DNA from: Parcubacteria group bacterium
GTDB lineage: Bacteria > Patescibacteriota > Patescibacteriia > UBA1558 > GWA2-36-10
Direction: 5' to 3'
NCBI GenBank assembly: GCA_003104935.1
Contig: PQAE01000011.1
Coordinates: 1-46,407 of the forward strand
DNA length: 46,407 bases
This document shows positions 4,258 through 46,308 of the stretch, piece by piece. The notes under the pieces were generated by a model, which had not been told where the DNA came from, did not search any database, and was given only the letters and a program-made list of their open reading frames with translations. Each line of letters begins with the position of its first letter. The stretch's first letter is position 1. The position numbers were made by a program, and so were the translations under genes.

Positions 4258-4472
4258 TGGTGGACTATATCCCGCCACGGCGGGATGACCTCCGCGTTGC
4301 CTGCCCGCCATTGTCATCGGCTGGTGGAGATAGCCGGACTTGAACCGGCGACCTTCTGCTTGCAAAGCAGGTGCTCTACCAATTGAGCTATATCCCCGAC
4401 AGGCGATGGCAGGCGGGCAAACGCGGCGCTCCCTGCCTACCGGCAGGCAGGTACCAACTAAGCTAACAGCCC
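4258..4472 (-). pseudogene. split outer tRNA-Ala containing a nested tRNA and palindromic insertions
   Basis: Acceptor GGGCTGT/ATAGTCC-ACCA with G3:U70; 20-bp palindrome in D-loop (4432-4451); anticodon loop interrupted by 4300-4417; T-arm replaced by hairpin ATCCCGCCGTGGCGGGAT (4269-4286). Confidence 0.85.
4322..4397 (-). tRNA. tRNA-Ala(TGC), intact, nested
   Basis: GGGGATATAGCTCAATTGGTAGAGCACCTGCTTTGCAAGCAGAAGGTCGCCGGTTCAAGTCCGGCTATCTCCACCA. Confidence 0.95.
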
Positions 4473-4518
4473 ACGATTTGACCTGCCCCGCCCGCGGGCG
4501 GGACAAGCCCCGAATAAA

Positions 4519-4679: not shown

Positions 4680-4724
4680 TCCCGCCAAAGGCGGGACGCG
4701 TCTACCAAGTTTCGCCATTCGCCC
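4680..4724 (-). pseudogene. 5' fragment of a Leu-like tRNA ending at a palindrome
   Basis: GGGCGAATGGCGAAACTTGGTAGACGCG followed by TCCCGCCTTTGGCGGGA where the anticodon arm should be. Confidence 0.7.
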
Positions 4725-33481: not shown

Positions 33482-34123
33482 GTTCAATTTTTTTATCGCC
33501 TGGGGAATATCGGCAGATTTTTGCAGATATGACCCGATAGCCAGGGCTGAAGCCCCGGCCTTTTTTATGGTTAGGGCGGTTTTTTCATTGACCCCGCCGT
33601 CGACGATGATGTTTAGCCGGGGGTAGAGTCGGCGCAAACTTTTTATTTTTGTCAAAACACTCTTTTGAAAAGCTTGTTTTTCCCGGCCGGGGATGACACC
33701 CATGATTTGTACGGCGTCAAAATATTTGACAATTTTTTTTATTTTATTGACCGGAGTTTCGGGGTTGATCGCCAGACCAACTTTTACTTTTTTTTGGTGC
33801 AGGTATTGAGCTAGGCAGATTTGGGAGCGCTCATCCGATTCGGCCTCATAGTGCCAGATAATCTGGCGGACATTTTTTAATTTTAACCAGGGCAAGATAC
33901 GGGCGGAAACACCTTTGACCATCAGATGGATCTCTAAGCGGTGATTTTGGGCGAGCGGACGGACACAACTGGGCCGGATATTATTTTTGATCGGCACCAA
34001 ATATCCGTCCATGATATCGATCTGAACATATTTAAAATAGGGAGCTATTTTTTGCCAGCGTTTTTTAAAGTCTGTGCCGTTTTTAGCTAAAACAGCGGGA
34101 ATGATTTTTATTTTTTTTATCAT
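33476..34123 (-). CDS. rpe: ribulose-phosphate 3-epimerase
   Basis: IDIMDG, HLMV, GLAINPET, MGVIPG, VDGGVN; start at the ATGA overlap with rpiB. Confidence 0.9.
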   Translation of the reverse strand: MIKKIKIIPAVLAKNGTDFKKRWQKIAPYFKYVQIDIMDGYLVPIKNNIRPSCVRPLAQNHRLEIHLMVKGVSARILPWLKLKNVRQIIWHYEAESDERSQICLAQYLHQKKVKVGLAINPETPVNKIKKIVKYFDAVQIMGVIPGREKQAFQKSVLTKIKSLRRLYPRLNIIVDGGVNEKTALTIKKAGASALAIGSYLQKSADIPQAIKKLNL

Positions 34124-34548
34124 GCCAGTTTTTTGATGCGACGGCAATGACGGGCTAGCCCGGAAAAAGGGGTTTTGACCCAGAGCATGATTATTTTTTC
34201 CATCTGACTCTGGTTAAAGTCCCAGACCGGCAGACAGAGCACATTGCTGTCCTCGTCCAAACGGCCGTGTTTGACCGTCATGGTCGAATAACCGACTATG
34301 GCCCGGACATTTTTAAAGCGATTAGCCATCATGGCCATGCCCTGGCCGCTACCGCAAAAAAGCAAACCCTGGTTAGCCGGATTGAAACTAATTTTTTGCG
34401 CCACTTTTTTAGCCCAGTCCGTATAATCGTCGTTTTTATCAAATTTGGCATTACCCAAATCTTTCCACGCGATATTATTTTTTGTCAAAAAAGCTTTAAT
34501 ATTTACTTTGGCCGCATAGCCGTTGTGATCTGAGCCGAGATAAAGCAT
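34120..34548 (-). CDS. rpiB: ribose-5-phosphate isomerase B
   Basis: GSDHNG, DDY, CGSGQG, ANR, NVLCL, RHCRRI. Confidence 0.92.
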   Translation of the reverse strand: MLYLGSDHNGYAAKVNIKAFLTKNNIAWKDLGNAKFDKNDDYTDWAKKVAQKISFNPANQGLLFCGSGQGMAMMANRFKNVRAIVGYSTMTVKHGRLDEDSNVLCLPVWDFNQSQMEKIIMLWVKTPFSGLARHCRRIKKLA

Positions 34549-34623
34549 AAGTTTGTATTAGCGTTAAAGGTTTATTATAGCCATATTTTAGCATATTTAT
34601 CGGTTAAAATGAAACTTTGGTCA

Positions 34624-34652
34624 TTGACTTACCCGCGGTTTTTTAGTATGCT
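34624..34652 (+). promoter_or_regulatory. sigma70 promoter for the tRNA-Arg/His cluster
   Basis: TTGACT-17-TATGCT. Confidence 0.65.
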
Positions 34653-34673
34653 ATGCTGTGTTTATTATATTGC

Positions 34674-34972
34674 GTCCCGGTAGTTCAATGGATAGAATAG
34701 GAGCCTTCCCCCGCAAAATAAACGAGCGAAGCGAGAACCTATAAAAGAGGGTCCCGCAACACTAAAGTATTTTACGCGCCCATAGCTCAATGGATAGAGC
34801 AACAGCCTTCTAAGCTGTAGGCTGCACGTTCGAGTCGTGCTGGGCGCACCAAATAGCAATATGTGCGGGGTCCTCGCAAATATAAGTACTCGCTATAGCT
34901 CGTACACATTTGCGGGATAAGCTCTAGATTCAGGTTCCCCCGGACTACGATCCGGGGCTGGCCGGGGCACCA
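34674..34972 (+). pseudogene. split outer tRNA-Arg(TCT) containing a nested tRNA
   Basis: 5' half GTCCCGGTAGTTCAATGGATAGAATAGGAGCCTTC (34674-34708); insert 34709-34917; 3' half TAAGCTCTAGATTCAGGTTC[CCCCGGACTACGATCCGGGG]CTGGCCGGGGCACCA. Confidence 0.88.
34776..34851 (+). tRNA. tRNA-Arg(TCT), intact, nested
   Basis: GCGCCCATAGCTCAATGGATAGAGCAACAGCCTTCTAAGCTGTAGGCTGCACGTTCGAGTCGTGCTGGGCGCACCA. Confidence 0.94.
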
Positions 34973-35034
34973 TCCTGCGCCTGCGGGCTTCGGATGGCTT
35001 TGCCACAATAGTTTAGAGTAAAGTTTAATTTCGT

Positions 35035-35109
35035 GGTGGCTATAGTTTAGCGGTAGAACAGCGGGTTGTGGTCCCGCTGGCCTGGGTTCGACTCCCAGTA
35101 GCCACCCCA
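35035..35109 (+). tRNA. tRNA-His(GTG)
   Basis: G-1:C73, anticodon arm GCGGG-TTGTGGT-CCCGC, GGTTCGACTCC, CCA. Confidence 0.95.
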
Positions 35110-36711
35110 TCGTGTGAGAACGGAGGTTAAAACCTCTGTTTTTGCTTTGTTTAAAGGCGTTTTATGCGGTTCTAACCTTAGGTATTCCGCCTCTAAGGCA
35201 GGGTAACCATTTTTAATAGGCACGAGCCACTCATTGGGCTCAATAGTTAGCTTTCCGTCCCTGATTATAGGGCTTTTACCTAAGGCCAAGAGTATCTCTC
35301 GCTTTAGTTCTAACCCCTTGTCGCCTTTTGCCGTTAGAAACGCCTTACGGGCATAAGTGGCGAAAGTAAATGTTTTTTCAGTAAGCTCCAGCCATTTTTC
35401 CGCTCGGTTTTCAGTTTCCCTTAAACCACCTTTTAGTTTATCTATTTCCGCTTGAAGTTCTTGTTTCTCCTTGAGGAAAGCTTGGTCATCAATAAGTTGG
35501 CGGTATCTCATTTTAGTTAGTTCGTCCAATTCATTTTGAGTTTGCGTCAAAGTTTTGTGTTGCATTTCGTAGATTTTGGCTCGGTCTTCAATCTCGGTGT
35601 CGTTCTTTTTATTTAGTCCCTCTAAAGCCCACTCTAAAAATTCAGGTAGTATAGTATATTTATCTATTTCCTTTTCAATTAGGAGCTCCAAATCTTCCTC
35701 CCTTATGTTTTTCCTTTGGGAGCAGGGGACATCTTTTTTTCGGCGTGTGCAGTGATAGTAAGTAAAGGTTTTTAACTCCCCAGTTTTCTTTATAACTTTA
35801 GTATGACTTTCGGCTGTATGGAAGCATCCACACTCGCCGCATACTATAGCTCCCGTAAAAGCAAATTTATGCGTTTGCGGTCTTATTTTTCCCCTTCGGC
35901 CAAGAACAGATTGAACCCTATCATATTCTTCATTTGTAATCATTGGTTCGTGCTTGCCTTGATAGTGCAGGCCACTACTTCGGGTGATGATGCCCGTATA
36001 AAAACGATTAGTAAAAATTCTATAAATTCCACTTTGAGAAAGCTTATTGTCCGTGCTTTTTCTTATTTTTCTTGTTCTAAAGCCCCAGTCGTCAGTGGCC
36101 ATTTTTAGGATTTGGCGGGCGGTGTAATTTCCCGTGAGCATTGTGTCCCACATCCTACGGACAAGATTAAAACGCTCTGGGTCTTTGGTTATGGTGTGCT
36201 TTATCGTGTCGTTAAGATAACCTAAGGGAGCTATGTTTGGCATCCAACCCTTTTCCAATTTACTTTGCAGGCCTCTCTTAGTATTTTTGCTTAAATCTAT
36301 TATAAATTGGTTGGCCACGCCGCTCTCAACACTAAATAGCAGGACATTGTCTTCGGGGAGGTATTGGCGGTCAATAGTTTGGATAGATTTAAGTGTCCCT
36401 TGCTGTAATAGCCAGCTTAGTTTGCCACTATCAATCGGGTTGCGGGAGAGGCGGTTTATTTGCCAGCATAAAATACCATCGGCCTCGTTGTTTTCAATTC
36501 GCTGTATTATTTCCTCAAATATAGGACGATTATTTGGCTTCTTGGCTGACTTCGCCTCGGTATAAACTTTTTTTATAGTCAGACCAGAATCATTAGCGAA
36601 TTTTTTGAGGCGATTTATTTGGTCATCTATACTTTGAACTTGGCGGTCTTCTGATTCGGAGCTTTTTCGGGCGTAGAGAAAGTATTTAATTTTAGTGCTG
36701 TTTAGTGCCAT
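35047..36711 (-). CDS. large serine recombinase
   Basis: YARKSS catalytic Ser, RLSRN, recombinase domain (PLGY; GKHEPMI), Zn ribbon CGECG..YYHC, coiled coil; C-terminus runs antisense through tRNA-His. Confidence 0.95.
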   Translation of the reverse strand: MALNSTKIKYFLYARKSSESEDRQVQSIDDQINRLKKFANDSGLTIKKVYTEAKSAKKPNNRPIFEEIIQRIENNEADGILCWQINRLSRNPIDSGKLSWLLQQGTLKSIQTIDRQYLPEDNVLLFSVESGVANQFIIDLSKNTKRGLQSKLEKGWMPNIAPLGYLNDTIKHTITKDPERFNLVRRMWDTMLTGNYTARQILKMATDDWGFRTRKIRKSTDNKLSQSGIYRIFTNRFYTGIITRSSGLHYQGKHEPMITNEEYDRVQSVLGRRGKIRPQTHKFAFTGAIVCGECGCFHTAESHTKVIKKTGELKTFTYYHCTRRKKDVPCSQRKNIREEDLELLIEKEIDKYTILPEFLEWALEGLNKKNDTEIEDRAKIYEMQHKTLTQTQNELDELTKMRYRQLIDDQAFLKEKQELQAEIDKLKGGLRETENRAEKWLELTEKTFTFATYARKAFLTAKGDKGLELKREILLALGKSPIIRDGKLTIEPNEWLVPIKNGYPALEAEYLRLEPHKTPLNKAKTEVLTSVLTRWGGYWESNPGQRDHNPLFYR

Positions 36712-36949: not shown

Positions 36950-37489
36950 TTAATCTTTGGAAATATTAACATCTATTGCAATGGGCGCAGGCGGCCTGCC
37001 TCCCGCACGGGCAGATTGTATTCGCTGTAATTCGTGCAGAGCTTTGTAAATACTTCGTTCAATGGCGGTTTCATACCGCAGTAAAGTTTCTGTATCGTTA
37101 TTAACAATCATATTACTTACTGCTCTTCGTTCTATTTGTTTTGGTGTGGTGTAGCAACTGGTAAGAGTATCAGAAAGGCAGTTTTCCTTTTGCCATTCCA
37201 TTGTTTCTCTTTCCACTTCCAGCAAGCGTCTTAGCCGCCAAACATTGGCAATAATTCTATCAACAAGCAACACCTCTACTTCTCCCGTGGGCATTAACTC
37301 GGCTCGCAGACGTTTTCCAAGCTCCTCAAGATTTTTTTCGTCCTCGTCCGAAAGCAAAACCTCTTTGCTCAATAGCCCGTGCTTTATGGCATTATACCTA
37401 CTCACCTCTTTGCCTTCTTCTGTTTTTACGCCGCCAAGCTTAGCATTTTCTCTATTGGCCTCTAATTGTTTTTGTGATACTTCGCCCAT
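36950..37489 (-). CDS. hypothetical island protein
   Basis: SQKQLEANRENAKLGGVKTEEGK..NAIKHGL; LLRYE..ALHEL. Confidence 0.8.
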   Translation of the reverse strand: MGEVSQKQLEANRENAKLGGVKTEEGKEVSRYNAIKHGLLSKEVLLSDEDEKNLEELGKRLRAELMPTGEVEVLLVDRIIANVWRLRRLLEVERETMEWQKENCLSDTLTSCYTTPKQIERRAVSNMIVNNDTETLLRYETAIERSIYKALHELQRIQSARAGGRPPAPIAIDVNISKD

Positions 37490-37621
37490 ATTTTATAGTA
37501 TTATTTACCTACCAGATATATAACCTTTATCTTATAGGAAAACTATTAAGTTACCTTATAGTTAAATATAGTTAAGTTAATTATATATTATTAACTATAT
37601 ATAATTGTAAGTTTAATATAG

Positions 37622-37933
37622 CTATTCCAAATCAAATCTTTTTTTGTGGTGTTCTTCGGATTGCAGTTTATACTCGTCCCAGATTTTCGCTTCCAGTTCT
37701 TTCCATAACTCTTTATTGGGCATAAAAAACATAGGATGATAACGGCCACCGCTATCTTTGTAAGAGGGGGGTGTTAGCCATAGTTTTTGACCCCTATCAT
37801 TTTCGTATTCGGACTCTGAAACCCTAAAACCTTTTATCACAAAATCACCAAAGTTTAGTCCGATAATGGCTTTTAATTTTTGGGATTCAATAAACTTGAT
37901 TTTGACCAGAATTTCGTCTTTGTTAATTGTCAT
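37622..37933 (-). CDS. SpoVG-like nucleic-acid-binding protein
   Basis: LKAIIGLNFGDFVIKGFRV..LWLTPPS..GRY pattern. Confidence 0.6.
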   Translation of the reverse strand: MTINKDEILVKIKFIESQKLKAIIGLNFGDFVIKGFRVSESEYENDRGQKLWLTPPSYKDSGGRYHPMFFMPNKELWKELEAKIWDEYKLQSEEHHKKRFDLE

Positions 37934-37985
37934 AGTAATTTATTAGCTGTTTGTAAAATAAAATTGAATTTGGGCTATTGTGGTT

Positions 37986-38213
37986 CTATTTTTGGTTGTC
38001 CTCAGGGGGTCTTGCGGGGGTATAGAGATGGGCTAAAATGCCTTTCTTGTCCTTTGGGGAAAAGCAACCTTTTTCCACCAGTTTATTAAACCAGCGAGCA
38101 ATGGCCTGTTTGCTAAAATTTTGCCCTTCTATCGCAGAGAAAAAACAGACATAGGAGCTCCAGTAGGGATTTCTGCCTCTAATTTTTGCAAATCTTCTCT
38201 CAATAGATTTCAT
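37986..38213 (-). CDS. hypothetical island protein
   Basis: ORF track; start reassigned to MKSIERRF. Confidence 0.65.
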   Translation of the reverse strand: MKSIERRFAKIRGRNPYWSSYVCFFSAIEGQNFSKQAIARWFNKLVEKGCFSPKDKKGILAHLYTPARPPEDNQK

Positions 38214-38244
38214 AATTGTAATGTTAATTTTTAGTATTTTCCTG

Positions 38245-38415
38245 CTACTTTTTTTGTAGCTGTTGATATTCAAGAGTCGTCATTGGTTTATAAATTAACT
38301 CAATGAGTCGAATGAGTTTTACACCTTGTTCAAACGCTTCCTCTCGGCTGATTTCTTTGCCAAAGCGGGTTTTATAAAGCGTTTGGTATTTTGTTATTTG
38401 CTCATCAGACAGCAT
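38245..38415 (-). CDS. small hypothetical island protein (56 aa)
   Basis: Manual translation MLSDEQITKYQTLYKTRFGKEISREEAFEQGVKLIRLIELIYKPMTTLEYQQLQKK*; tightly packed in the operon. Confidence 0.7.
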   Translation of the reverse strand: MLSDEQITKYQTLYKTRFGKEISREEAFEQGVKLIRLIELIYKPMTTLEYQQLQKK

Positions 38416-38419
38416 AGGT

Positions 38420-38686
38420 TTATTCCGAGTAAATGCGGTTTTTGAGCATTTTCACATTGTCAAAAAACGCTCTCGCCTTAATTTCCAAGCGGTCTGCCCA
38501 GTAATCATCCACGACCTTTTCAATGCCGATGGTTCGGCGAAAAATAAATTGAACCTTTTTGGGGTTGGTCTTGTCCAAAGAAACAAGCTCAAAACCAGCC
38601 GTTACTAACGAAGCGGCCGCTCCCAAGTCAAAGGTTTGTAGGTATTTGGTGAAGTCATCTATCGGGCCTTTTAATTTTCTGGTCAT
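38420..38686 (-). CDS. DUF5659-like small protein
   Basis: TFDLGAAASL..GFEL..KVQFIF pattern. Confidence 0.6.
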   Translation of the reverse strand: MTRKLKGPIDDFTKYLQTFDLGAAASLVTAGFELVSLDKTNPKKVQFIFRRTIGIEKVVDDYWADRLEIKARAFFDNVKMLKNRIYSE

Positions 38687-38817
38687 TTAATTTTGTAAGT
38701 TAATTGGTTAAATTATCCAGCTCCGTAGCACTGGCTGATAAAAAAAGCCAAAGCGTATTCTGCTTTGACTTTACTAAAACATTGGGTGAGTCAATTACGG
38801 CTCAATTGGTCTAAATA

Positions 38818-39735
38818 TCAATAATTTCGTTTGATAGTTTTTTCTTGCCAAGTAAATAGGTTGTCGTTGGTATTTATGATTTCTTTTATTCTTTTATTTA
38901 GGGCATCCATAGCATCATAAACTATGCGCCAATTTTCTCTGGTTGGTGATGGTTTGCCATAGTATGCCTCATAATATCCAGTCATTTTTTCATAGATTAT
39001 TGACCAATCAACAGGTTCATTTATTTTATATTCATACATTGCGCGACAAAGATAGTGCTCATTTTTGAATTGTGGCAATGGAACAGCGCGGTCTTCAACA
39101 AATATAGTTATTTTTTCATCATCAAAACTTATTTTTTTGTTAAATAAGTTAGTTTTTATGGGAGTTTCTGGTGAAGATTTAGCCGTATCGGGCACAATCT
39201 TTACATCACTATCTATGTGTCCCCCAACTATTTGAATAGGTATCGGTCTTTTAATCTGTTGTTGAATAGTGGCGGGCGAGAACATTTCAGAAACTAAATT
39301 TTGTAATTCTGCACCAACAGGCATATTTTCTCTCTCTTTCTCTCTCTTCTTTCGTCTATCCTCACTGGCCTCTATTAGTTCTTTTGTTGCCCCCACAATC
39401 TTACCATTGGATAGGCAGTAACCATCATATTGTAAATAATCGTTAAAATTATCTTGCATCTCAAGAGATTTTTCTTTATCTCCATTATGCATTAGGGGGT
39501 GGACAGCTTCCTCAATGATTTGAAATAGCGTTTTTGCATCTTCTATGTTTTGTGAGGAAGCGAATTTTGATAAGACGGCATAGACCATTTTCCATTTTGT
39601 ATTAGGATACTCAATAATTTCTCGCCCAACACCGCAGTTCACAAGAAACTCTACCAGACCCTCGCCACTGGACAGGTTGCTAATTTGTATCGCAATCAAT
39701 TCAAGAGATTTTGGTCTTATAATTTGTGGAGGCAT
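38818..39735 (-). CDS. hypothetical protein, possible C-terminal winged-helix regulator
   Basis: 305-aa ORF divergent from the HTH gene; C-terminus VDWSIIYE..VYDAMDALNKRI. Confidence 0.65.
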   Translation of the reverse strand: MPPQIIRPKSLELIAIQISNLSSGEGLVEFLVNCGVGREIIEYPNTKWKMVYAVLSKFASSQNIEDAKTLFQIIEEAVHPLMHNGDKEKSLEMQDNFNDYLQYDGYCLSNGKIVGATKELIEASEDRRKKREKERENMPVGAELQNLVSEMFSPATIQQQIKRPIPIQIVGGHIDSDVKIVPDTAKSSPETPIKTNLFNKKISFDDEKITIFVEDRAVPLPQFKNEHYLCRAMYEYKINEPVDWSIIYEKMTGYYEAYYGKPSPTRENWRIVYDAMDALNKRIKEIINTNDNLFTWQEKTIKRNY

Positions 39736-39820
39736 TAAATTTTAGATAATTGTCATATAATATTGCAAGTAAAATTAACTTGCTGTATAATAATGTTAGC
39801 AAATGTTAAGTAATAAATCA

Positions 39821-40024
39821 ATGGCAAAACAAGCTAAAAACGAACAAAAAATGCCAGAACTTCTATCGCTAAAAGAGGCGTCAGAAATTTTAAAATGCCA
39901 CCCAAACACTTTGCGGAAGTGGGATAAAAAAGGTATTTTAGTTGCCGTTCGTTTTGGAGAAAGAAAAGACAGGCGTTATAGAAAAGAAGATATTTTGAAG
40001 TTACTAAACCAAAAGAAAAGATGA
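39821..40024 (+). CDS. excisionase/MerR-like HTH protein
   Basis: LLSLKEASEILKCHPNTLRKWDKKG..RRY. Confidence 0.85.
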   Translation: MAKQAKNEQKMPELLSLKEASEILKCHPNTLRKWDKKGILVAVRFGERKDRRYRKEDILKLLNQKKR

Positions 40025-40087
40025 TATAAATAATTAACAATTTAATTGCCTAACCCTCGTAAAGTAAAATTCCGAGGTATGGCATAA

Positions 40088-40225
40088 AACTCCCAACCAC
40101 GATAGTAAGCTCCTCATTGAGCACTCGTGGTTGGGTCAGTGGCCGAAAGGTTATTGGGTGGCCCGAAAGGGTTGCCGCTCGTGGGGGGCTTTCTGTTTCC
40201 ACGAGCACTAAATCCCAACCACAAA
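40088..40225 (+). ncRNA. structured multi-hairpin leader upstream of mod
   Basis: Stems CCCAACCACGA/TCGTGGTTGGG, two GAAA-capped hairpins, GCTCGTGG/CCACGAGC; second CCCAACCAC just before the ATG. Confidence 0.6.
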
Positions 40226-41896
40226 ATGTCAAACAATCAACCAACACAAAATCTACTTAAGGAAGTTGAAAATCTTAAAGATGAAATAAAACAGCTCAAA
40301 TCACGAAAGCGATATGGGCTTGTTTGGGAAGAAAAGCCAGAACAGGTAGTTGAATTATGCAAAGAAAAGTTGCCTGTTTTAGCCGAGGACAGAGAAAGAG
40401 AAATCAAATCTGACGGCGACAAGCCAGTAAATATTCTTATTGAGGGAGATAATTACCACGCTCTCTCTGTTTTGAATTACACCCACGAAAAAAAGATTGA
40501 TGTAATTTATATTGACCCACCGTATAACACGGGTGCTAAGGATTGGAAATACAACAATAATTTTGTAGATATAAACGATTTATGGCGACACAGCAAATGG
40601 CTTTCAATGATGAAAAATCGCCTTGTATTAGCAAAGAAACTTCTTAAACAAGATGGAGTTCTTATCTGTTCTATTGATGAAAATGAACAGGCACATCTTG
40701 GCGTGCTTTTAGAAGAACTATTCCAAAACCACGAAATACATTGCATTACAATCGTGCATAACCCACGAGGAGTGCAGGGCAAAAACTTTTCATATTCTCA
40801 CGAGTATACCTTTTTTGTTTTTAGAAAAGGTGTGGAAGTTATTGGAAGTAAACAGCGTGAGGAGGTGTTAGAAGAAGAGTTGAGAGACCACGGCGGCGAG
40901 TCATTAAGAACTGACGCCAAAAATTGCTTCTATCCAATTTTGGTTAAAAACGATAGCATTGTTGGTTTCGGCGATGTCCCACTTAAAAATTTTCATCCAA
41001 ATGGTAAAAATGTTCAAAGAAAAGATAAAACGATTGAAGTTTGGCCTATTGATGTGAGGGGTGTTGAAAGGAAGTGGGTATTTGCACGCAATACGGTTGA
41101 AGAAATTAAAAACAAGTTATTTGTTGCTAAAAAGAAAAATGGCCAGATTGATATTTTCCGCCGAAAGGATACTCAAAAACCAAGAACTGTTTGGATAGGA
41201 AAAAAATATGATGCAAGCACTTTCGGTTCAAAGATAGTTAATGGCTTAACAGGAACTCTATTTCCATTCCCGAAATCCTTATACAACACAAAAGATTGTC
41301 TTGAGTGTGTTGTAAAACAGAGAAAAAAAGCTGTTGTTCTAGATTATTTTGCTGGTTCTGGCACAACTGGCCACGCAGTAGCTTTATTAAATAAAGAGGA
41401 TAACGGCAATCGTCAATTCATTCTTTGCACAAACAACGAAAACGGAATTGCTCAAGATATTTGTTATCCAAGAATTAAAGCGGTTATTAAAGGAAATAAA
41501 GAATATAAAGATATTACGGGCATAACAAGTAATCTAAAATACTTCAGAACGGATTTTGTTGATGGTGCAACAACCGATAAAAATAAGAAAAAGCTCGTTG
41601 ATAAGTCAACAGAAATGCTCTGTCTGAAAGAGGATTGTTTTGAGAAAGTGAAAACGGGCAGGCATTTTGATATGTTCAAAAATCCCAAAGGGAAATATCT
41701 GGGAATAATTTATGACGATAATGGAATTGAAAACTTCAAGAAAGAGGTAAAAAAGCTCAACAAGAATTTTGTTGTTTATGTTTTCTCGCTTGATGATAGT
41801 GCGAGAGAAGAAGAGTTTGAGGATATGAAAAACCTCGTTGAATTAAAGCCAATTCCTGCGGTCATATTAAATGTTTATAAACGTATATTCAAATGA
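40226..41896 (+). CDS. mod: Type III R-M adenine methyltransferase
   Basis: YGLVWE, IEGDN, IDPPYNTG, FPKS, DYFAGSGTTG; start set at MSNNQ. Confidence 0.92.
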   Translation: MSNNQPTQNLLKEVENLKDEIKQLKSRKRYGLVWEEKPEQVVELCKEKLPVLAEDREREIKSDGDKPVNILIEGDNYHALSVLNYTHEKKIDVIYIDPPYNTGAKDWKYNNNFVDINDLWRHSKWLSMMKNRLVLAKKLLKQDGVLICSIDENEQAHLGVLLEELFQNHEIHCITIVHNPRGVQGKNFSYSHEYTFFVFRKGVEVIGSKQREEVLEEELRDHGGESLRTDAKNCFYPILVKNDSIVGFGDVPLKNFHPNGKNVQRKDKTIEVWPIDVRGVERKWVFARNTVEEIKNKLFVAKKKNGQIDIFRRKDTQKPRTVWIGKKYDASTFGSKIVNGLTGTLFPFPKSLYNTKDCLECVVKQRKKAVVLDYFAGSGTTGHAVALLNKEDNGNRQFILCTNNENGIAQDICYPRIKAVIKGNKEYKDITGITSNLKYFRTDFVDGATTDKNKKKLVDKSTEMLCLKEDCFEKVKTGRHFDMFKNPKGKYLGIIYDDNGIENFKKEVKKLNKNFVVYVFSLDDSAREEEFEDMKNLVELKPIPAVILNVYKRIFK

Positions 41897-44079
41897 TTAA
41901 ACTAAAAGATTACCAACAACAGGCGGCGGAAAATTTGCACAGAAAAATTGAAAGCTCATTAAGGTCTTCCGAAAATGAGGTGGTCGTTTTTCAAGCTCCG
42001 ACGGGTTCTGGTAAAACCGTTATGGTTTCAGAGATGCTGAAAGAAATTACAAGAAACAGAAAGGACGATAAAAGGTTTTCTTTTGTCTGGATTTCGGTGA
42101 GAATGTTGCACGAGCAAAGCAAAGAAAAACTGGAAAAATACTACGAAGACGACAGAACCCTAAAGTGTTCGTATTTTGAAGATTTGGAAGACCGAAAAAT
42201 AGCCGAAAACGAAATTCTATTTATTAACTGGCACAGTATAAATAAAAAAGACATAAATATTTTCGTCCGAGAAAACGAGCAGGACAATAACCTAAATACC
42301 ATTATAAAAAGGACTAAAGATGACGAAAGGACAATCGTTTTAATCATTGACGAAAGCCATCACACGGCTGGCTCGGAGAAATCCAGAGAGCTTATTGAAG
42401 TCATCGGCCCGAAGGTAACTTTAGAGGTTTCTGCTACGCCGCACTTGGAAGAAAGTGCCGCAGAAAAAGAGAAAGTCCGCTTGTCGGATGTCAAGGCGGA
42501 AGAAATGATTAAATCCGAAATATCTGTAAACCCAGAATTTCTTGATATTAAAATTGGCATAAAAAGCTCGGATGAAGTTGTTATTGAGGAAGCCCTTAAA
42601 AAGCGAGAGGAGCTGGCCAAAATGTATAAAAAAGAGAAAGCAAAGATAAACCCACTAATGCTTATCCAACTTCCAGACAACAGAGCTGGTCTTGTAGGCA
42701 AAAAAGAAGAAGTCATTAAGATATTGGACAAAAAAGGCATAACAGAAAAAAACGGCAAGCTCGCCGTCTGGTTATCAGAGGACAAATCAGACACCCTACC
42801 AAACATTGAAAAGAACGATAATGAGGTTGAAGTTCTAATATTCAAGCAGGCAATCGCCTTAGGTTGGGATTGCCCCAGAGCTTCAATTCTGGTGATTTTT
42901 AGAGAGTCAAAGAGTTTTACGTTCACCATTCAAACAATCGGCAGGATAATGCGTATGCCTGAATTGAAGTATTACTCAAAAGAGTCAGAACTTAATAAAG
43001 GTTTTGTTTTTACGAATTTAGCAAATATAGAAATTACCGAGGATTATGCCAAAGATTATGTAACGGTTTTTGAAGCAAAAAGAGACAATAAACTTTATAA
43101 AAATATTGCTCTGCCGTCAATCTTCTTAAGGCGGCAGAGGGAGCGAACTCGTTTATCTGGAGAGTTCGGCAAGTTTTTTATGGCAATAGCAAAAAGCAAT
43201 GATTTGCGACAGAAAGTAAATCTCAGGCCGTCAAAAATCATCAGCCCCATAATAGCTGACGGGAGAATTGTCGATATTGATAAATCTGGCGAGATTGAAC
43301 GGAAGGGCACAATTAACATCGCCTTAAATGAGAAAGAACTGCAAGAAAGATTTGATAAGTTTATCGTTCAAAACTGCACTCCTTACGCTCCCGCCGACTC
43401 CAGCGACAGAATGAAAACGGCAATTTATCAATTTTTCAATCAGGAGTTTAAGTTTGCAAAATATGACCCCAAAGTGCAGACAATTGTTCTTGGTAAAGAA
43501 AATATCCAGTTGTTTATAGATATAATTAACTTGGCAAAAGAGAAGTATAGAAAAGAGATTGTTGAAAAACTTGCCGAGAAAAGAGAGCTAACCGAAACCC
43601 CAGAATGGGAAGTGCCGATTGTGATAACCTACAACAGCAGGTATCATCAAGAAGAACAGCCGCTCTCGGTTATGAGGCCGTTTTATACGGCAAAACAGAG
43701 TGAGCCAGAGAGGATGTTTATTGATTTTCTAAATAGCTCAAAAAAGGTTAAGTGGTGGTTTAAGAATGGCGAGGGAGAAATTAAGTATTTTGCAGTGTTG
43801 AGACCAGATGACCAAGCATTTTATCCCGATTTCATAATTCAGTTTAAGGACGGGAGCGTAGGCATATTTGACACAAAGTCAGGGCGAACAGCCGAGACGG
43901 GAGACGCCGCCCCCAGAGCCGAGGCACTACAGAAGTTCATTAAGAGGCAAATCAAGAGCGGTAGGAAGCTAGTAGGTGGCATTGCTATTTATGTTAATGG
44001 CACTTGGCGATACAACGACAATGTAAGATACGACTATAATCCGAAAGATTTATCAACGTGGAAGGTCTTGGATTTATAA
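41893..44079 (+). CDS. res: Type III R-M restriction subunit
   Basis: APTGSGKT, IIDESH, SAT, GWDCPR, QTIGRIMR, FYPDF..DTK nuclease motif; ATGA overlap with mod. Confidence 0.9.
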   Translation: MIKLKDYQQQAAENLHRKIESSLRSSENEVVVFQAPTGSGKTVMVSEMLKEITRNRKDDKRFSFVWISVRMLHEQSKEKLEKYYEDDRTLKCSYFEDLEDRKIAENEILFINWHSINKKDINIFVRENEQDNNLNTIIKRTKDDERTIVLIIDESHHTAGSEKSRELIEVIGPKVTLEVSATPHLEESAAEKEKVRLSDVKAEEMIKSEISVNPEFLDIKIGIKSSDEVVIEEALKKREELAKMYKKEKAKINPLMLIQLPDNRAGLVGKKEEVIKILDKKGITEKNGKLAVWLSEDKSDTLPNIEKNDNEVEVLIFKQAIALGWDCPRASILVIFRESKSFTFTIQTIGRIMRMPELKYYSKESELNKGFVFTNLANIEITEDYAKDYVTVFEAKRDNKLYKNIALPSIFLRRQRERTRLSGEFGKFFMAIAKSNDLRQKVNLRPSKIISPIIADGRIVDIDKSGEIERKGTINIALNEKELQERFDKFIVQNCTPYAPADSSDRMKTAIYQFFNQEFKFAKYDPKVQTIVLGKENIQLFIDIINLAKEKYRKEIVEKLAEKRELTETPEWEVPIVITYNSRYHQEEQPLSVMRPFYTAKQSEPERMFIDFLNSSKKVKWWFKNGEGEIKYFAVLRPDDQAFYPDFIIQFKDGSVGIFDTKSGRTAETGDAAPRAEALQKFIKRQIKSGRKLVGGIAIYVNGTWRYNDNVRYDYNPKDLSTWKVLDL

Positions 44080-44245
44080 TCACGCATCAGGGAAAAAAGC
44101 TGGATGGGTTGACATCTTGGTATTTATCAGTTAAACTACTGAGTCATTTAACTATCTGGTCTTTTATGATATAATTATAATATCAAGGAAAGCCCGTTTA
44201 TGAGGGTGACAAACCATCATAAATTTATAGTATTTAGCTATATTT

Positions 44246-44803
44246 ATGGGCAAGAACCAAAAAATAGAAAAATTGAACACAGAGGACTATATCCTTTATA
44301 TTCTTAATAGATTAGAACCTCAAAAAAGTGATAAGATTAGATTAAATAAAATCGCTTTCTTTGTTGAGTTTGCGTATATTTTTTATAATAATAAAGTTTT
44401 GTCAGAAGCAAATTACGCGGCCATTGATAAGGGCCCAGTGATTGATGGTTACGACACAATTTTGAAATCTATGGCCAACGAAGGCAAAATTAAAATAGAT
44501 GGTTATGTTTTGCGGCCACTTAAATCATCGGAAGTTAATTTAACGGAGAATGACGTAGTTTTTATAAACGGAATAATTGATAAGTATTCTGCCTTTAATA
44601 AAGACGAGCTTATTGCGTTGTCTCACGCCACTGATTCCTATAAAATTACCACCAACAATGAGAAAGATATGGGTGGCATCATAAACAAAAAGTTAGCTTT
44701 CCTTGAAACATTTTTTCAAGAATCAGAAGGAGAGGATGATGATAAGGATGAAGACACGCTCCCCGAGCTTGATAGGAAAAAATTAGTAGAATATGAATTT
44801 TAG
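44246..44803 (+). CDS. Panacea (DUF4065/SocA-like) antitoxin
   Basis: RLNKIAFF, GPV, LIALSH; acidic tail. Confidence 0.75.
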   Translation: MGKNQKIEKLNTEDYILYILNRLEPQKSDKIRLNKIAFFVEFAYIFYNNKVLSEANYAAIDKGPVIDGYDTILKSMANEGKIKIDGYVLRPLKSSEVNLTENDVVFINGIIDKYSAFNKDELIALSHATDSYKITTNNEKDMGGIINKKLAFLETFFQESEGEDDDKDEDTLPELDRKKLVEYEF

Positions 44804-45116
44804 TTTTGATGGATATAAAATTTTATTGGAGCAGAAACTTCAAAAAAGTATAAAAAACAACCTCCCGCAACAACTTAAGGAGGTTTTTGAATCAAAGCTA
44901 AAGTATCTATCTAAAAATCCATCCTATCCAAGCTTGAACACTAAAAGGTATGGTGTTAGCAAAAAAATACTAATAAAATTGGGAGTCAGTGAAGTATGGG
45001 AGTTTTATATAAACGGAAAAGAATATCGTTGTATCTTCTACGTTTCACACGGTGAAAAAATTATAATAATAGCTTATGTGGGCAATCATCAGCAGATAAA
45101 AAATAAATACTGTTAG
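44793..45116 (+). CDS. RelE/ParE-superfamily-like toxin
   Basis: NPSYPSLNT, VWEFYIN..YRCIF, VGNH; overlaps the antitoxin end. Confidence 0.7.
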   Translation: MNFSFDGYKILLEQKLQKSIKNNLPQQLKEVFESKLKYLSKNPSYPSLNTKRYGVSKKILIKLGVSEVWEFYINGKEYRCIFYVSHGEKIIIIAYVGNHQQIKNKYC

Positions 45117-45297
45117 TGGTTATCTAAAGTCGGGTATATAAATATATTCATCTTGCTGTTGGATAATCATTCTAACATCCCTGACTATGCGACCCCATCA
45201 GAGAATCATTCCAATCGGAATGTTTTTTTGATTTATTGTAGCTTTACAAGGAGATATTTCTGGAATATAATGCTTCATATAAACTATTCCCATAGTT

Positions 45298-46308
45298 ATG
45301 AAAATAAAAAATATTCTACCGCCATCATTAAAACCTGGGCAGGCAATAGCAGTAATTGCTCCATCCAGCCCGGTTAGTGGTGTTTGTAAAGGGGAGACTA
45401 TTAAAAGGGGCTACGATTATCTAAGGGAAAGGGGCTATAAAATAATAGAAGGTGAATCAGTAAAAAGGTTAAGTAAAAAACACACAGCTGGGTCGGTTTC
45501 CATGAGAGTTGAAGAAATTCATAGTTTTGTAAAGAGAACAGACGTGGGCTGTATAATGGCTTTTTGGGGCGGGTATAACTGTAATCAGTTGCTGGATAAG
45601 TTAGATTACAAACTAATAAAACAATATCCAAAAATCTTTATTGGATTTTCTGACATAACAGCATTAACCACAGCGGTAACAACTAAAACCGGGTTAGTCA
45701 CCTTTTCAGGGCCAAGCGTGATATCGTTTGCCAAACCAACCCCTTTTCAGTATACTTGGGACTATTTTTGTAAAACCTGCATTAACCCTAAAGATTTTTG
45801 TCCCATAAGTGATTCTCTTCAATATTCTGATGATGCATATTACTTAAGAAAAGACGATAATCATCGTATAAAAAAGCATAACAAGGGAATGCGCATATTT
45901 AAAAATGGTCGGGCAAAAGGAAAAATAATAGTGGGCAATCTTCAAACCCTCTTGCTACTAAATGGCACAGAGTATCTTGGAGATTTTAAAAATAAAATCC
46001 TTTTTTTAGAAGAGGATGAATCTATAAACATAGCTTATTTTGATAGGTGCCTAGTGCAATGCGAGCAGTTGGGCTGGTTTAAAAAAATATCGGGCTTAGT
46101 TTTTGGTCGTTTTACCGAACAAACAAAGATAACTGAAAGCATTTTATTATCACTTTTTAAGGAACGTTTCAATCAAATTGATTTTCCTATTCTGTATAAC
46201 GCTGATTTCGGGCACTCCGATCCTATGTTTACGATTCCAAATGGAGGCGAGGTAAAGATTAACACTGCCGCAAAAGTAAAAATTATATTTAAAAAAGCGG
46301 TGGTATAA
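45298..46308 (+). CDS. S66 LD-carboxypeptidase/MccF-family peptidase
   Basis: VIAPSS, GGYN, GFSDITAL, GNL, LFLEE, FGH (Ser-Glu-His triad). Confidence 0.9.
   Translation: MKIKNILPPSLKPGQAIAVIAPSSPVSGVCKGETIKRGYDYLRERGYKIIEGESVKRLSKKHTAGSVSMRVEEIHSFVKRTDVGCIMAFWGGYNCNQLLDKLDYKLIKQYPKIFIGFSDITALTTAVTTKTGLVTFSGPSVISFAKPTPFQYTWDYFCKTCINPKDFCPISDSLQYSDDAYYLRKDDNHRIKKHNKGMRIFKNGRAKGKIIVGNLQTLLLLNGTEYLGDFKNKILFLEEDESINIAYFDRCLVQCEQLGWFKKISGLVFGRFTEQTKITESILLSLFKERFNQIDFPILYNADFGHSDPMFTIPNGGEVKINTAAKVKIIFKKAVV

What the first reader, a model, noticed from the sequence alone, without database searches (positions are those of the whole stretch)
34674..34972. Matryoshka tRNA: intact tRNA-Arg(TCT) inside the anticodon of another tRNA-Arg(TCT)
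Seen: deleting 34709-34917 rejoins GGAGC-CTTC|TAA-GCTCT, an Arg(TCT) anticodon arm, with the break unambiguously between anticodon bases 2 and 3 (35/36). The 209-bp insert holds a complete, sequence-divergent tRNA-Arg(TCT). It is flanked by ~50-bp imperfect inverted arms (CCCGCAAA..ACGAGC..GCGAG..GAGG..CCCGCA, mirrored on the right), so the transcript could fold with both outer halves juxtaposed. The outer T-loop is also replaced by a 20-bp palindrome. Ordinary island integration gives an intact tRNA plus a 3' fragment, not 5' half / intact tRNA / 3' half. Inference: a small non-coding, palindrome-bounded element that targets an anticodon and carries a replacement of the same isoacceptor, or repeat-mediated rescue of a damaged tRNA.
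Basis: partly seen in the sequence, partly recalled or inferred. Interest (0 to 1): 0.9.

Follow-up and report, generated by a model that had tools for sequence, protein, structure and literature searches.

The report
tRNA gene nested inside its twin
A working arginine tRNA gene, wrapped in two mutually complementary arms, sits exactly inside the anticodon of an older copy of the same tRNA gene, and the same Russian-doll layout recurs for other tRNAs in this tiny bacterium, pointing to an undescribed way in which tRNA genes are replaced.

Summary
Window 34674-34972 is the clade's usual tRNA-Arg(UCU) gene, found uninterrupted beside tRNA-His in many relatives. Here it is split cleanly between anticodon bases 35 and 36 by 209 nt: a 67-nt arm, a complete divergent tRNA-Arg(UCU) (74 bits, the genome's only one), and a complementary 66-nt arm. 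The outer T loop carries a 20-nt palindrome.

Independent contigs from three sequencing runs span the junctions. The same cassette sits at the same break in three other genomes. Two of them share identical left arm and inner tRNA although their flanking genes are only 67-74% identical, which indicates recent transfer.

The outer copy is damaged differently in each genome. It is not a group I or archaeal-type intron, and the genome lacks RtcB and the tRNA splicing endonuclease.

The case is not isolated. The same genome holds four more same-anticodon nested pairs (Ala, Asn, Ile, Thr). Two have termini resembling a 20-bp perfect palindrome that occurs in 155 of 401 sampled genomes of the class and often sits in tRNA loops. 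Homing-endonuclease genes occupy several of these loci.

Best reading: a palindrome-armed DNA cassette delivers a replacement tRNA into its cognate gene. How it moves is not shown.

The parts
34624..34652 (+). Promoter-like site (TTGACT, 17 nt, TATGCT) upstream of the outer 5' half. It is the only such site in 34500-35200.
   Evidence: One site found; shuffles give a mean of 1.2, so this is a consensus match only. That it drives the whole unit is an inference.
34674..34708 (+). Outer tRNA-Arg(UCU) 5' half, positions 1-35: acceptor GTCCCGG, D arm GTTC/GAAT, anticodon-stem strand GGAGC, loop CTTC.
   Evidence: (33 of 33 and 34 of 35 identical to intact genes in L003 and L031).
34709..34775 (+). 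Left arm of the cassette, 67 nt. Conserved blocks: CCCCGCAAAAT, GAGCGAAGCGA, GGTCCCGCAACAC.
   Evidence: It is 78% identical to the left arms of G003, G004 and the G029:C48 contig.
34776..34851 (+). Inner, complete tRNA-Arg(UCU) with encoded CCA. It is the only tRNA-Arg(tct) that ARAGORN finds in the genome.
   Evidence: (74 bits).
34852..34917 (+). Right arm of the cassette, 66 nt, complementary to the left arm. Conserved blocks: TGCGGGGTCCTCGCAAAT and ACATTTGCGGGA.
   Evidence: (73-74% identical to G003 and the G029:C48 contig).
34918..34972 (+). Outer tRNA-Arg(UCU) 3' half, positions 36-76: TAA, GCTCT, variable loop, damaged T arm, acceptor CCGGGGC, A, CCA.
34938..34957 (+). 20-nt palindrome in the outer T loop, standing where relatives have 5 nt.
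   Evidence: Removing 15 nt there lets ARAGORN call a 75-nt tRNA at a relaxed threshold.
35036..35109 (+). tRNA-His(GUG), the conserved downstream neighbour. A terminator-like hairpin follows at 35114-35145.
34120..34548 (-). rpiB, the conserved upstream neighbour that anchors synteny with the empty and filled alleles.
   Evidence: LacAB_rpiB, E 5e-34.
4258..4472 (-). A second nested pair in the window. The outer tRNA-Ala(UGC) keeps G3.U70 and the loop TT TGC..A A. It is split at 35/36 or 36/37 by a cassette with termini CCCGCCTGCC..GGCGGGCAGG that holds the intact tRNA-Ala(UGC) at 4322-4397. The outer D loop carries a 20-nt palindrome (4432-4451). The outer T arm is replaced by a GC hairpin (4270-4285).
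   Evidence: fold -107.1 kcal/mol.

Best explanation
What it is. The locus is the resident tRNA-Arg(UCU) gene of this lineage. A roughly 205-nt non-coding DNA cassette has cut it at anticodon position 35/36. The cassette consists of two mutually complementary arms enclosing a complete, functional tRNA-Arg(UCU) gene of a different sequence type.

How it most likely works.
- The inner gene now does the decoding.
- It is most likely transcribed from the old gene's promoter, together with tRNA-His.
- It is probably released by RNase P and 3' processing from a long leader/trailer helix formed by the arms.
- The outer halves are relics. They decay, or acquire further palindromic insertions, differently in each genome.

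Mobility. The cassette moves between genomes as DNA into the same site. The conserved tRNA halves on either side give ready-made homology for allele replacement.

Why inner and outer match. An insertion into a tRNA gene is tolerated only when the cargo is the cognate tRNA.

Wider setting. This is one instance of a lineage-wide turnover of tRNA genes. GC-rich palindromes, with or without a tRNA at their centre, enter tRNA genes at 21/22, 35/36 and 55/56. Free-standing homing-endonuclease genes (LAGLIDADG, GIY-YIG) colonise the same loci.

Shown versus inferred. Shown: the anatomy, the recurrence, the empty alleles, the transfer signature, the damage to the outer copies, and the lack of known splicing features. 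Inferred: co-transcription, processing, the selection filter, and the agent of insertion.
For: Anatomy and empty allele.

Same cassette, same CTTC|..|TAA break, in four loci: G000, G003, G004 and the G029:C48 contig.
- These were the only true hits of the arm pattern in the genome-contig scan, which gave 3 true and 2 chance hits of 5.
- The metagenome scan gave 2 records with the contig lengths of the G003 and G004 contigs and 3 chance hits of 5.
- By BLAST of the left arm, full-length matches were found in 3 of 401 genomes sampled across the class.

Transfer signature.
- G003 and G004 have left arm and inner tRNA 100% identical. The best alignments in their flanks are only 67-74% identical.
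- The G000 cassette differs by 22-27% from the others. It nevertheless sits in an almost unmutated local gene.

The inner gene is needed. It is the only tRNA-Arg(tct) among the 46 tRNAs found.

The outer copies are defective, each differently.
- G000 has the T-loop palindrome.
- G003, G004 and G029:C48 have about 11 extra nt between the D arm and the anticodon stem.
- G004 has lost the 3' half.
- Excised forms are not called as Arg tRNAs at the default threshold.

Generality in G000.
- Five nested same-anticodon pairs: Arg-TCT, Ala-TGC, Asn-GTT, Ile-GAT, Thr-CGT.
- 14 of 46 tRNAs have own-type fragments within 350 nt.
- Long leader/trailer helices with z below -4 occur for only 4 of 45 tRNAs, three of them nested.

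Link to palindromes.
- The Thr and Ala cassettes end in half-sites 9 of 10 identical to the halves of CCTGCCTGCCGGCAGGCAGG.
- That palindrome occurs in 52 of 86 genomes of the order and 155 of 401 of the class.
- It sits at 21/22 or 35/36 of tRNA fragments.

Endonuclease genes at these loci.
- A LAGLIDADG ORF lies between tRNA-Arg and tRNA-His in 3 of 86 genomes of the order, including the nested G004 allele.
- GIY-YIG ORFs lie between a 5' tRNA fragment and the intact tRNA in L072, and in G000 on contig C8. L073 has the same layout, but its ORF was not run against Pfam.

One promoter-like site lies upstream of the outer half and one terminator-like hairpin after tRNA-His.
Against: - No enzyme that moves the cassette was identified. 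G000 has no homolog of the LAGLIDADG protein and no Y1 transposase.
- There is no target-site duplication and no shared crossover base at the junctions.
- Only four loci carry this particular cassette, so covariation in the arms is thin: 1 compensatory pair among 3 sequences. The arms could be kept by DNA-level or by RNA-level constraints.
- Several outer copies keep perfect stems with compensatory differences from the inner copy, for example Thr-CGT. That is unexpected for old junk. It means the insertions are recent or the outer copies still matter.
- In Asn the inner and outer parts are 100% identical over the matched 20 and 33 nt. In Ile a 38-nt outer stretch is 97% identical to the inner gene. 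Both fit local duplication or gene conversion as well as import.
- No RNA data could be laid on the locus. The one RNA run showed only a foreign tRNA-like contig.
Confidence: 0.58

Rival explanations
1. Homology-guided repair product rather than a discrete mobile element. A double-strand break in a loop of the resident tRNA gene is repaired by copying a whole cognate tRNA gene, with its leader and trailer, from a sister or imported copy. The break could come from a homing endonuclease or from cleavage at the centre of an inserted palindrome. The result is a nested duplication. The arms are simply the donor's flanks plus the palindrome halves.
For: - Inner and outer are always cognate, 5 of 5 loci, as a homology-guided choice of donor would predict.
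- Asn inner and outer parts are identical.
- LAGLIDADG and GIY-YIG genes sit at these loci.
- The Thr and Ala cassettes look like a palindrome split at its centre.
- Tandem and partial copies of many tRNAs lie next to intact ones.
Against: - The same arms, with conserved sequence blocks, flank different inner tRNA types in four loci. G003 and G004 share them at 100% identity. Together these point to a unit that travels as a whole.
- The long complementarity of the arms is not explained by copying ordinary flanks. Only 4 of 45 tRNAs in the genome have such flanks.
Confidence: 0.2
2. A true intron. The cassette is removed from the transcript and the outer halves are joined, so that one transcript yields two tRNA-Arg(UCU) molecules.
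For: - The break is precise and lies in the anticodon loop, where bacterial group I introns sit (whole text of preprint 10.1101/2020.01.27.920355).
- The arms bring the two splice sites together.
- G.U pairs in the GGGTCCC/GGGGTCC segment pair only on the tRNA strand.
- The acceptor, D and anticodon stems of the G000 outer copy are intact.
Against: - No Rfam family other than tRNA reaches its gathering score at E up to 10 in 34600-35040. In particular there is no Intron_gpI match.
- The base before the 5' site is C and the last inserted base is A, not U and G.
- Only 133 nt of the insert are not tRNA.
- No bulge-helix-bulge can be drawn: GCCU against GCGG (read).
- No RtcB and no tRNA splicing endonuclease in a genome scored 100% complete. 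The controls rang in 10 and 4 of the 14 control genomes.
- Even after excision the outer gene lacks a normal T loop in G000 and has extra bases or no 3' half in the other three loci.
Confidence: 0.1
3. A functional composite RNA. The outer tRNA-like shell, with acceptor stem and CCA, is kept as a scaffold or processing platform that stabilises or regulates expression of the inner tRNA.
For: - Outer acceptor stems stay perfectly paired and co-vary: G1-C72 becomes C1-G72 and G6-C67 becomes U6-G67 in the G029:C48 contig.
- The 5' fragments stay identical or nearly identical to the adjacent intact gene in 6 of 8 related loci read.
- The T arm is replaced by GC hairpins of the same length, 16-18 nt against 17.
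Against: - Most relatives do without it, having uninterrupted genes.
- G004 has lost the outer 3' half altogether.
- The lesions differ from genome to genome.
Confidence: 0.07
4. Assembly or binning artefact.
For: - The genome is a metagenome assembly.
- One of the related loci, G029:C48, is a 1524-nt contig that probably belongs to another organism than its bin.
Against: - Contigs from three runs cover both junctions without a difference.
- The architecture recurs on contigs of 161.6 kb and 191.8 kb in other genomes.
Confidence: 0.01

Closest known systems
[quoted passage not shown]
   Same: - A precise insertion in the anticodon loop of a tRNA gene.
- Some introns of this kind are mobile through homing endonucleases.
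- They are frequent in uncultured phyla.
   Different: - No ribozyme core and no Rfam match.
- C at -1 and A as the last base.
- The cargo is a whole tRNA gene.
- The host gene is left defective.
Integrative elements that target tRNA genes and carry a copy of the displaced part (recalled: Williams 2002). Also the archaeal model of tRNA gene disruption by a mobile element (PMC3293823, abstract read).
   Same: - A mobile DNA enters a tRNA gene.
- The element itself restores function.
- A fragment of the old gene is left behind.
   Different: - Those leave one intact gene plus one fragment and carry an integrase.
- Here a whole gene lies between both old halves, the arms are inverted repeats, and there is no recombinase and no shared core sequence at the junctions.
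Small GC-rich palindromic mobile DNAs: yeast mitochondrial GC clusters (PMC4478555, search listing and start of abstract seen), conserved GC-rich palindromes flanking tRNA genes in Neurospora mitochondria (recalled), bacterial REP/REPIN and Rickettsia palindromic elements (recalled)
   Same: - Short GC-rich palindromes in many copies in an AT-richer genome.
- They lie at hairpin tips and next to or inside RNA genes.
- They are patchy between relatives.
   Different: - None of these is known to carry a tRNA gene at its centre or to sit in the cognate tRNA gene.
- No RAYT-type transposase in G000.
Free-standing homing endonucleases in tRNA gene clusters, such as phage T4 SegB (PMC2330249, search listing and start of abstract seen)
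   Same: Nuclease genes sit between tRNA genes and drive preferential inheritance of the neighbouring tRNA region.
   Different: - T4 shows no nested genes.
- Here the nuclease gene is missing from 3 of the 4 Arg cassette loci.
Archaeal split, permuted and multi-intron tRNA genes (PMC4033280 and PMC3978253, search listings seen)
   Same: tRNA genes are interrupted at several defined positions. The halves are brought together by complementary flanking sequences.
   Different: - Those are rejoined by the splicing endonuclease and a ligase at bulge-helix-bulge motifs. Neither the motif nor the enzymes are present here.
- A working copy sits inside the interrupted one.

Membership tests
Group I intron in a tRNA anticodon loop | Conserved catalytic core detectable by the Rfam Intron_gpI model | tested here: not met
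   at E up to 10 over 34600-35040 the matches are the tRNA and one sub-threshold minus-strand hit to RF04354. There is no Intron_gpI match.
Group I intron in a tRNA anticodon loop | U (rarely C) before the 5' splice site, paired in P1, and G as the last intron base | tested here: not met
   C before the site and A as the last base, in all loci with a complete right junction.
Archaeal-type (bulge-helix-bulge) intron or split tRNA | Two 3-nt bulges separated by a 4-bp helix at the splice sites | tested here: not met
   Read: the required 4-bp helix would pair GCCU with GCGG, which gives 1 Watson-Crick pair.
Archaeal-type (bulge-helix-bulge) intron or split tRNA | tRNA splicing endonuclease and an RNA ligase (RtcB) encoded in the genome | tested here: not met
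   no match in G000 (completeness 100). The controls matched in 10 and 4 of the 14 control genomes.
Integrase-mediated island at a tRNA gene (tyrosine or large serine recombinase) | One intact gene plus one direct-repeat fragment, with an identical core or crossover sequence at both junctions | tested here: not met
   both halves flank the intact gene and no base is shared at the junctions. A large serine recombinase gene does lie at 35120-36711, but beyond tRNA-His.
MITE (non-autonomous DDE transposon) | Terminal inverted repeats | tested here: met
   CCCCGCAAAAT .. ATTTGCGGGA, and complementarity along the whole arms.
MITE (non-autonomous DDE transposon) | Target-site duplication, and many copies per genome | tested here: not met
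   No duplication at CTTC|..|TAA. There is one copy, plus one 17-nt partial match on contig C4.
REP/REPIN with RAYT, or IS200/IS605 derivative | A Y1 transposase in the genome, and subterminal hairpins at each end | tested here: not met
   no Y1_Tnp in G000; present in 3 of the 5 palindrome-rich genomes tested, 2 of them over the cut-off. The arms pair with each other, not within themselves.
Homing-endonuclease cassette (intron-less homing) | An endonuclease gene inside or beside the inserted DNA | tested here: inconclusive
   A LAGLIDADG ORF stands beside the truncated right arm in G004, and beside uninterrupted tRNA-Arg genes in G022 and G052. There is none in G000, G003 or the G029:C48 contig.
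Homing-endonuclease cassette (intron-less homing) | Cleavage of the empty allele at or near the insertion point | not testable with these tools
   Needs the enzyme and a DNA cleavage assay.

The most novel reading that the evidence does not exclude
A class of Patescibacteria harbours a family of tiny palindromic DNA elements that enter tRNA genes at fixed structural positions (21/22, 35/36, 55/56). The elements can carry a whole tRNA gene at their centre. A loaded element that lands in its cognate gene complements the damage it causes. It is therefore a self-rescuing parasite of tRNA genes, and a vehicle for horizontal replacement of tRNA genes. This would be a new kind of disrupted tRNA gene and a new kind of mobile element.
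Probability: 0.38. Interest if true: 0.92.

Novelty: categorically new. Interest (0 to 1): 0.88.

Why it matters
- tRNA genes are among the most conserved genes, and how they are exchanged or replaced is poorly understood. Here a complete replacement gene is delivered into the very gene it replaces. The old halves remain as a datable scar.
- Relatives hold empty and filled alleles, so the process can be followed directly in populations.
- The layout adds a fourth kind of disrupted tRNA gene (nested) to the intron-containing, split and permuted kinds, and it does so in Bacteria.
- It links the nested genes to a 20-bp perfect palindrome conserved across a whole class of ultrasmall bacteria. That palindrome did not occur in any paper of the searched library.
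- It warns annotators that tRNA finders see only the inner genes and miss a layer of tRNA-derived sequence.
- If an enzyme inserts DNA at defined positions of tRNA-shaped DNA or RNA, it would be a new structure-guided insertion activity.

Tried and rejected
Tried without result, or considered and rejected.

- Group I intron, archaeal-type intron, integrase att duplication, large-serine-recombinase insertion, MITE and REP/RAYT were each tested. At least one defining feature failed for each (see the membership tests).
- ARAGORN in intron mode did not call the outer gene in the region. On the whole genome it gave only an odd 97-nt tRNA on contig C2 and an implausible Cys call with an 835-nt intron.
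- Phage origin. The right-arm motif had 0 matches in viral contigs. BLAST against phage records matched only the tRNA part.
- Wider family of the Arg cassette.
  - The genome-contig scan added 2 chance hits in coding DNA. The metagenome scan added 3.
  - BLAST of the left arm over a class-wide sample gave only short weak hits besides G000, G003 and G004. Those inspected were coding or unrelated DNA.
  - The right-arm motif with up to 1 mismatch occurs in 3 of 39 family genomes, plus a second hairpin in G000 on contig C4 near 3027-3054 whose meaning stays open.
- Fragments of the Arg or His tRNA elsewhere in G000: none.
- Enzyme hunt.
  - No homolog of the LAGLIDADG protein in G000.
  - No Y1 transposase in G000, and only 3 of 5 palindrome-rich genomes have one.
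  - Other transposase families were not searched.
- RNA evidence. The single RNA run laid (X21) gave one foreign tRNA-like contig over 34778-34817 and nothing else. This says nothing about expression or splicing.
- Literature. No paper held the terms (the two palindrome strings) or 77 in a way that describes this. Searches gave only the analogues cited.
- Supplementary files were not opened. The table of intron types in preprint 10.1101/2020.01.27.920355 is an image and was not seen, so an Arg(UCU) intron type listed there cannot be excluded.
Full report
**1. What is in the sequence**

The window is contig C11 of a 975,546-base, 12-contig genome, scored 100% complete. Record titles of two related loci call them Patescibacteria group MAGs.

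At 34674-34972 the + strand reads as follows:
- a 35-nt tRNA 5' half: acceptor GTCCCGG, D arm GTTC/GAAT, anticodon-stem strand GGAGC, loop bases CTTC;
- 209 nt of insert;
- a 55-nt 3' half: TAA, GCTCT, variable loop, an abnormal T arm, acceptor CCGGGGC, discriminator A, CCA.

The insert starts with C and ends with A while the exon junction is C|T. The break therefore lies unambiguously between positions 35 and 36.

Inside the insert ARAGORN and Rfam find a complete tRNA-Arg(tct) at 34776-34851, scoring 74 bits. The 67 nt before it and the 66 nt after it are complementary over about 55 bp. The duplex energy is -56.9 kcal/mol, z = -7.9 against shuffles, the strongest leader/trailer pairing among the 45 tRNA genes scored.

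**2. The outer halves are the resident gene, and empty alleles exist**

A BLAST of 34660-34985 against 61 genomes, G000 included, gave many hits that stop exactly at the break. I fetched twelve of them.
- In 11 of the 12 ARAGORN or BLAST shows an uninterrupted gene. The two halves are contiguous, the T loop is normal, and the match to the G000 halves is 91-100%. tRNA-His usually follows.
- The twelfth (L030) was not inspected further.

The outer gene is thus the common type of tRNA-Arg(UCU) of this order. The rpiB / tRNA-Arg / tRNA-His interval without insert is the empty allele.

**3. The same cassette elsewhere**

Three other loci have the same layout with the same CTTC|CCCCGCAAAAT ... ACATTTGCGGGA|TAAGC junctions:
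- G003;
- G004;
- the 1524-nt contig G029:C48. Its rpiB is 78% identical to that of G004, and its bin already has an uninterrupted locus on C10. It therefore probably comes from another organism.

A pattern built from the left arm found only these loci. The scan of 185,579 species genomes gave 3 true and 2 chance hits. The metagenome scan gave 2 records with the contig lengths of the G003 and G004 contigs and 3 chance hits. Left-arm BLAST over 401 genomes sampled across the class gave full-length hits in 3.

The inner tRNAs differ between loci (76-79% identical). In G029:C48 the inner gene is the common type that forms the outer gene in G000.

G003 and G004 belong to different genera. The best alignments in their flanks are 67-74% identical. 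Their 5' half, left arm and inner tRNA are nevertheless 96.5% identical over 228 nt, and the left arm and inner tRNA are 100% identical. That is the signature of recent transfer.

The G000 cassette differs by 22-27% from the others but sits in a nearly unmutated local gene. This also fits movement.

**4. Is the outer gene still a gene?**

After in-silico excision ARAGORN does not call the G000 outer gene at its default threshold.
- It does so only at a relaxed threshold, or after a further 15-nt deletion in the T loop.
- G003 and G029:C48 give calls without a proper anticodon, because about 11 extra bases lie between the D arm and the anticodon stem.
- G004 lacks the outer 3' half altogether.

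Each genome thus has a different lesion.

The insert is not a group I intron.
- No Rfam family other than tRNA reaches its gathering score at E up to 10.
- C precedes the 5' site and the last inserted base is A.
- Only 133 nt of the insert are not tRNA (compare).

No bulge-helix-bulge can be drawn. The genome has no RtcB and no tRNA splicing endonuclease, while the control genomes matched.

The inner gene is the only tRNA-Arg(tct) among the 46 tRNAs found.

One promoter-like site lies upstream of the outer half and one terminator-like hairpin after tRNA-His. Co-transcription of the whole unit is inferred from this, not shown.

**5. Not an artefact**

Contigs assembled independently from three runs cover the junctions without a difference:
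- X2, 683 nt;
- X3, 319 nt;
- X1, two contigs overlapping inside the inner tRNA.

X1 and X2 may be the source samples. No joined (empty) form and no informative RNA were seen.

**6. The case is one of many**

BLAST of all G000 tRNAs against the genome showed fragments beside intact genes of the same type. A scan of the flanks flagged 14 of 46 tRNAs. This is an undercount inside tRNA clusters.

Reading the loci gives four more nested pairs with the same anticodon.

- **Ala-UGC**, in this window at 4472 to 4258 on the minus strand.
  - The outer copy keeps G3.U70 and its loop.
  - The break is at 35/36 or 36/37.
- **Asn-GUU**, contig C8 10439-10656.
  - The cassette TCCCGCT..AGCGGGA replaces the anticodon arm.
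- **Ile-GAU**, contig C1 2376 to 2098.
  - The cassette has perfect 18-bp arms and sits at about 48/49.
  - Palindromes lie in the D and T loops.
- **Thr-CGU**, contig C6 10729 to 10488.
  - The cassette sits at 21/22.
  - A second hairpin insert lies at 35/36.

Glu-UUC has an upstream outer part with hairpins at 35/36.

In several 3' fragments the 17-nt T arm is replaced by a 16-18-nt GC hairpin of the form TCCCGCC-NNN-GGCGGGA. About 10 of the short hairpins of this kind lie within 200 nt of a tRNA, whereas about 4% of the genome lies within 400 nt of one.

**7. A class-wide palindrome**

The outer D loops of Asn and Ala carry a 20-nt palindrome that differs at one base from CCTGCCTGCCGGCAGGCAGG.

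In relatives the perfect form sits at 21/22 (GGTA|GAGC) of 5' fragments lying upstream of the intact same tRNA.
- This holds in 8 of 8 loci, but I picked those loci through D-arm similarity, so the count is biased.
- The tRNAs concerned are Thr-GGU, Lys-CUU (twice), Thr-UGU, Ile-UAU, Val-GAC, Thr-CGU and Asn-GUU.
- Two of the loci have further hairpins at 35/36.

Distribution of the palindrome:
- with up to 2 mismatches, in 52 of 86 genomes of the order, up to 51 copies;
- with up to 1 mismatch, in 155 of 401 genomes sampled across the class, up to 54 copies;
- the reversed control matched in 1 and 3 genomes.

In the richest genome of the order 2 of 16 inspected sites are tRNA-like, one of them at 35/36 of an Ile-UAU copy. 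The rest lie in AT-rich intergenic DNA after TA.

The Thr and Ala cassettes of G000 end in half-sites 9 of 10 identical to the two halves of this palindrome. They look like the palindrome opened at its centre with a tRNA inside. The Arg and Asn cassettes end in a related CCCCGC/TCCCGC .. GCGGGA pair.

No paper in the library holds the palindrome string.

**8. Nucleases at the loci**

- A 147-aa LAGLIDADG ORF (Pfam E 2.6e-6) lies between tRNA-Arg and tRNA-His in 3 of 86 genomes of the order. They are G004, where it follows the truncated right arm, and G022 and G052, where the tRNA is uninterrupted.
- G000 has 9 small GIY-YIG ORFs, 3 of them beside tRNAs. One lies between a 5' fragment of tRNA-Met carrying a GC hairpin and the intact tRNA-Met.
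- The same layout holds for Lys-CUU in two relatives. The GIY-YIG domain was confirmed for one of them (E 4e-14).
- Downstream of tRNA-His the window holds a large serine recombinase and an island with a type III restriction-modification system. The junctions of the Arg cassette share no crossover base, so this recombinase is not the obvious agent.

**9. Reading**

The best-supported account is a palindrome-armed DNA cassette that brings a replacement tRNA into its cognate gene. The old halves are left as relics (confidence 0.58).

The cognate rule, 5 of 5 loci, can come from selection, from homology, or from both.
- Selection: only a self-complementing insertion is tolerated.
- Homology: the tRNA halves guide allele replacement or the choice of repair donor.

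The main rival is a repair product of nuclease-made breaks rather than a discrete element (0.2). Splicing of the outer gene (0.1) and a scaffold function of the outer shell (0.07) are not excluded. The perfect, co-varying stems of some outer copies are the strongest point in their favour.

**10. Novelty**

Searches for nested or interrupted bacterial tRNA genes, tRNA introns in this phylum, and the palindrome itself found no description.

The nearest analogues each fail at least one defining test here:
- the archaeal disruption model (abstract read);
- T4 SegB (search listing);
- yeast mitochondrial GC clusters (search listing).

I therefore rate the finding as a new kind of disrupted tRNA gene. 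How the cassette moves is not yet known.

Noticed in passing
window 4258-4472 (minus strand): A second nested pair. An intact tRNA-Ala(UGC) at 4322-4397 lies inside the anticodon loop of an older tRNA-Ala(UGC). The older copy has a 20-nt palindrome in its D loop (4432-4451) and a GC hairpin in place of its T arm (4270-4285).
   Followed up: partly
window about 4670-4724 (minus strand) and 4476-4511: A 5' fragment of a tRNA-Leu-like gene with a TCCCGCC..GGCGGGA hairpin (4680-4696) lies upstream of the intact tRNA-Leu(GAG). Another GC hairpin (TCCCGCCCGCGGGCGGGG) lies between tRNA-Leu and the outer tRNA-Ala.
   Followed up: no
related genomes of the order and class; loci L071-L093: The 20-bp perfect palindrome CCTGCCTGCCGGCAGGCAGG occurs in 52 of 86 genomes of the order and 155 of 401 sampled genomes of the class, with up to 54 copies per roughly 1-Mb genome. 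It sits in tRNA loops and in AT-rich intergenic DNA after TA. The string is in no paper of the searched library.
   Followed up: partly
G000 contigs C8:10439-10656, C1:2098-2376, C6:10488-10729, C5:101950-102260, C9:30475-30750: Further nested or fragment-flanked tRNA genes: Asn, Ile and Thr-CGU are nested. Glu has an upstream outer part with hairpins at 35/36. Asp is followed by two tandem 3' fragments whose T arms are replaced by GC hairpins.
   Followed up: partly
window 35120-36711 (minus strand) and 36950-46308: Directly after tRNA-His lies an apparent genomic island. It holds a large serine recombinase, a SpoVG-like ORF, a type III restriction-modification pair (40127-44079), a SocA/Panacea antitoxin-like ORF (44246-44803) and an LD-carboxypeptidase.
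   Followed up: partly
window 40047-40176 (+): Rfam LOOT RNA match (80.3 bits, gathering score 46.4) at the start of the DNA methylase ORF region.
   Followed up: no
L004 1800-2243; L044 (G022:C7:17688-18125); L045 (G052:C15:4308-4742): A free-standing single-motif LAGLIDADG endonuclease gene occupies the tRNA-Arg(UCU) to tRNA-His spacer in three genomes. It is preceded by a conserved hairpin (TGTGGT..ACCACA).
   Followed up: partly
G000 C8:9778-9978, C6:10143-10361, C5:29691-29903; L072 414-668: Small GIY-YIG nuclease ORFs sit beside tRNA genes. In two cases the ORF lies between a hairpin-bearing 5' fragment and the intact copy of the same tRNA (Met in G000, Lys-CUU in a relative).
   Followed up: partly
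G000 C2:74799-74895 (minus strand): A 97-nt Thr-like tRNA with a 28-nt anticodon loop. It has its own TTGACA / TAATAT promoter-like site and a terminator-like hairpin. Whether it is functional is unknown.
   Followed up: no
G000 whole genome: ARAGORN finds no tRNA-Tyr, tRNA-Ser(UGA) or tRNA-Arg(ACG) in a genome scored 100% complete. They may be unassembled, or interrupted in ways the finder cannot see.
   Followed up: no
L005 and L006 (G020, G001): In another genus of the family, the type of tRNA-Arg(UCU) that is the inner gene in G000 is the resident gene. It is preceded by a decayed mini-copy: its first 12 nt, a GC hairpin, then an acceptor-like 3' strand. The same upstream flank is repeated.
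   Followed up: no
G000 C4 about 3027-3054: A hairpin CCCCGCA TCAAG TGCGGGG followed by TCCTCGCAAT repeats 17 nt of the right arm of the Arg cassette. It lies in an intergenic region full of other hairpins and could be an empty relative of the cassette.
   Followed up: partly
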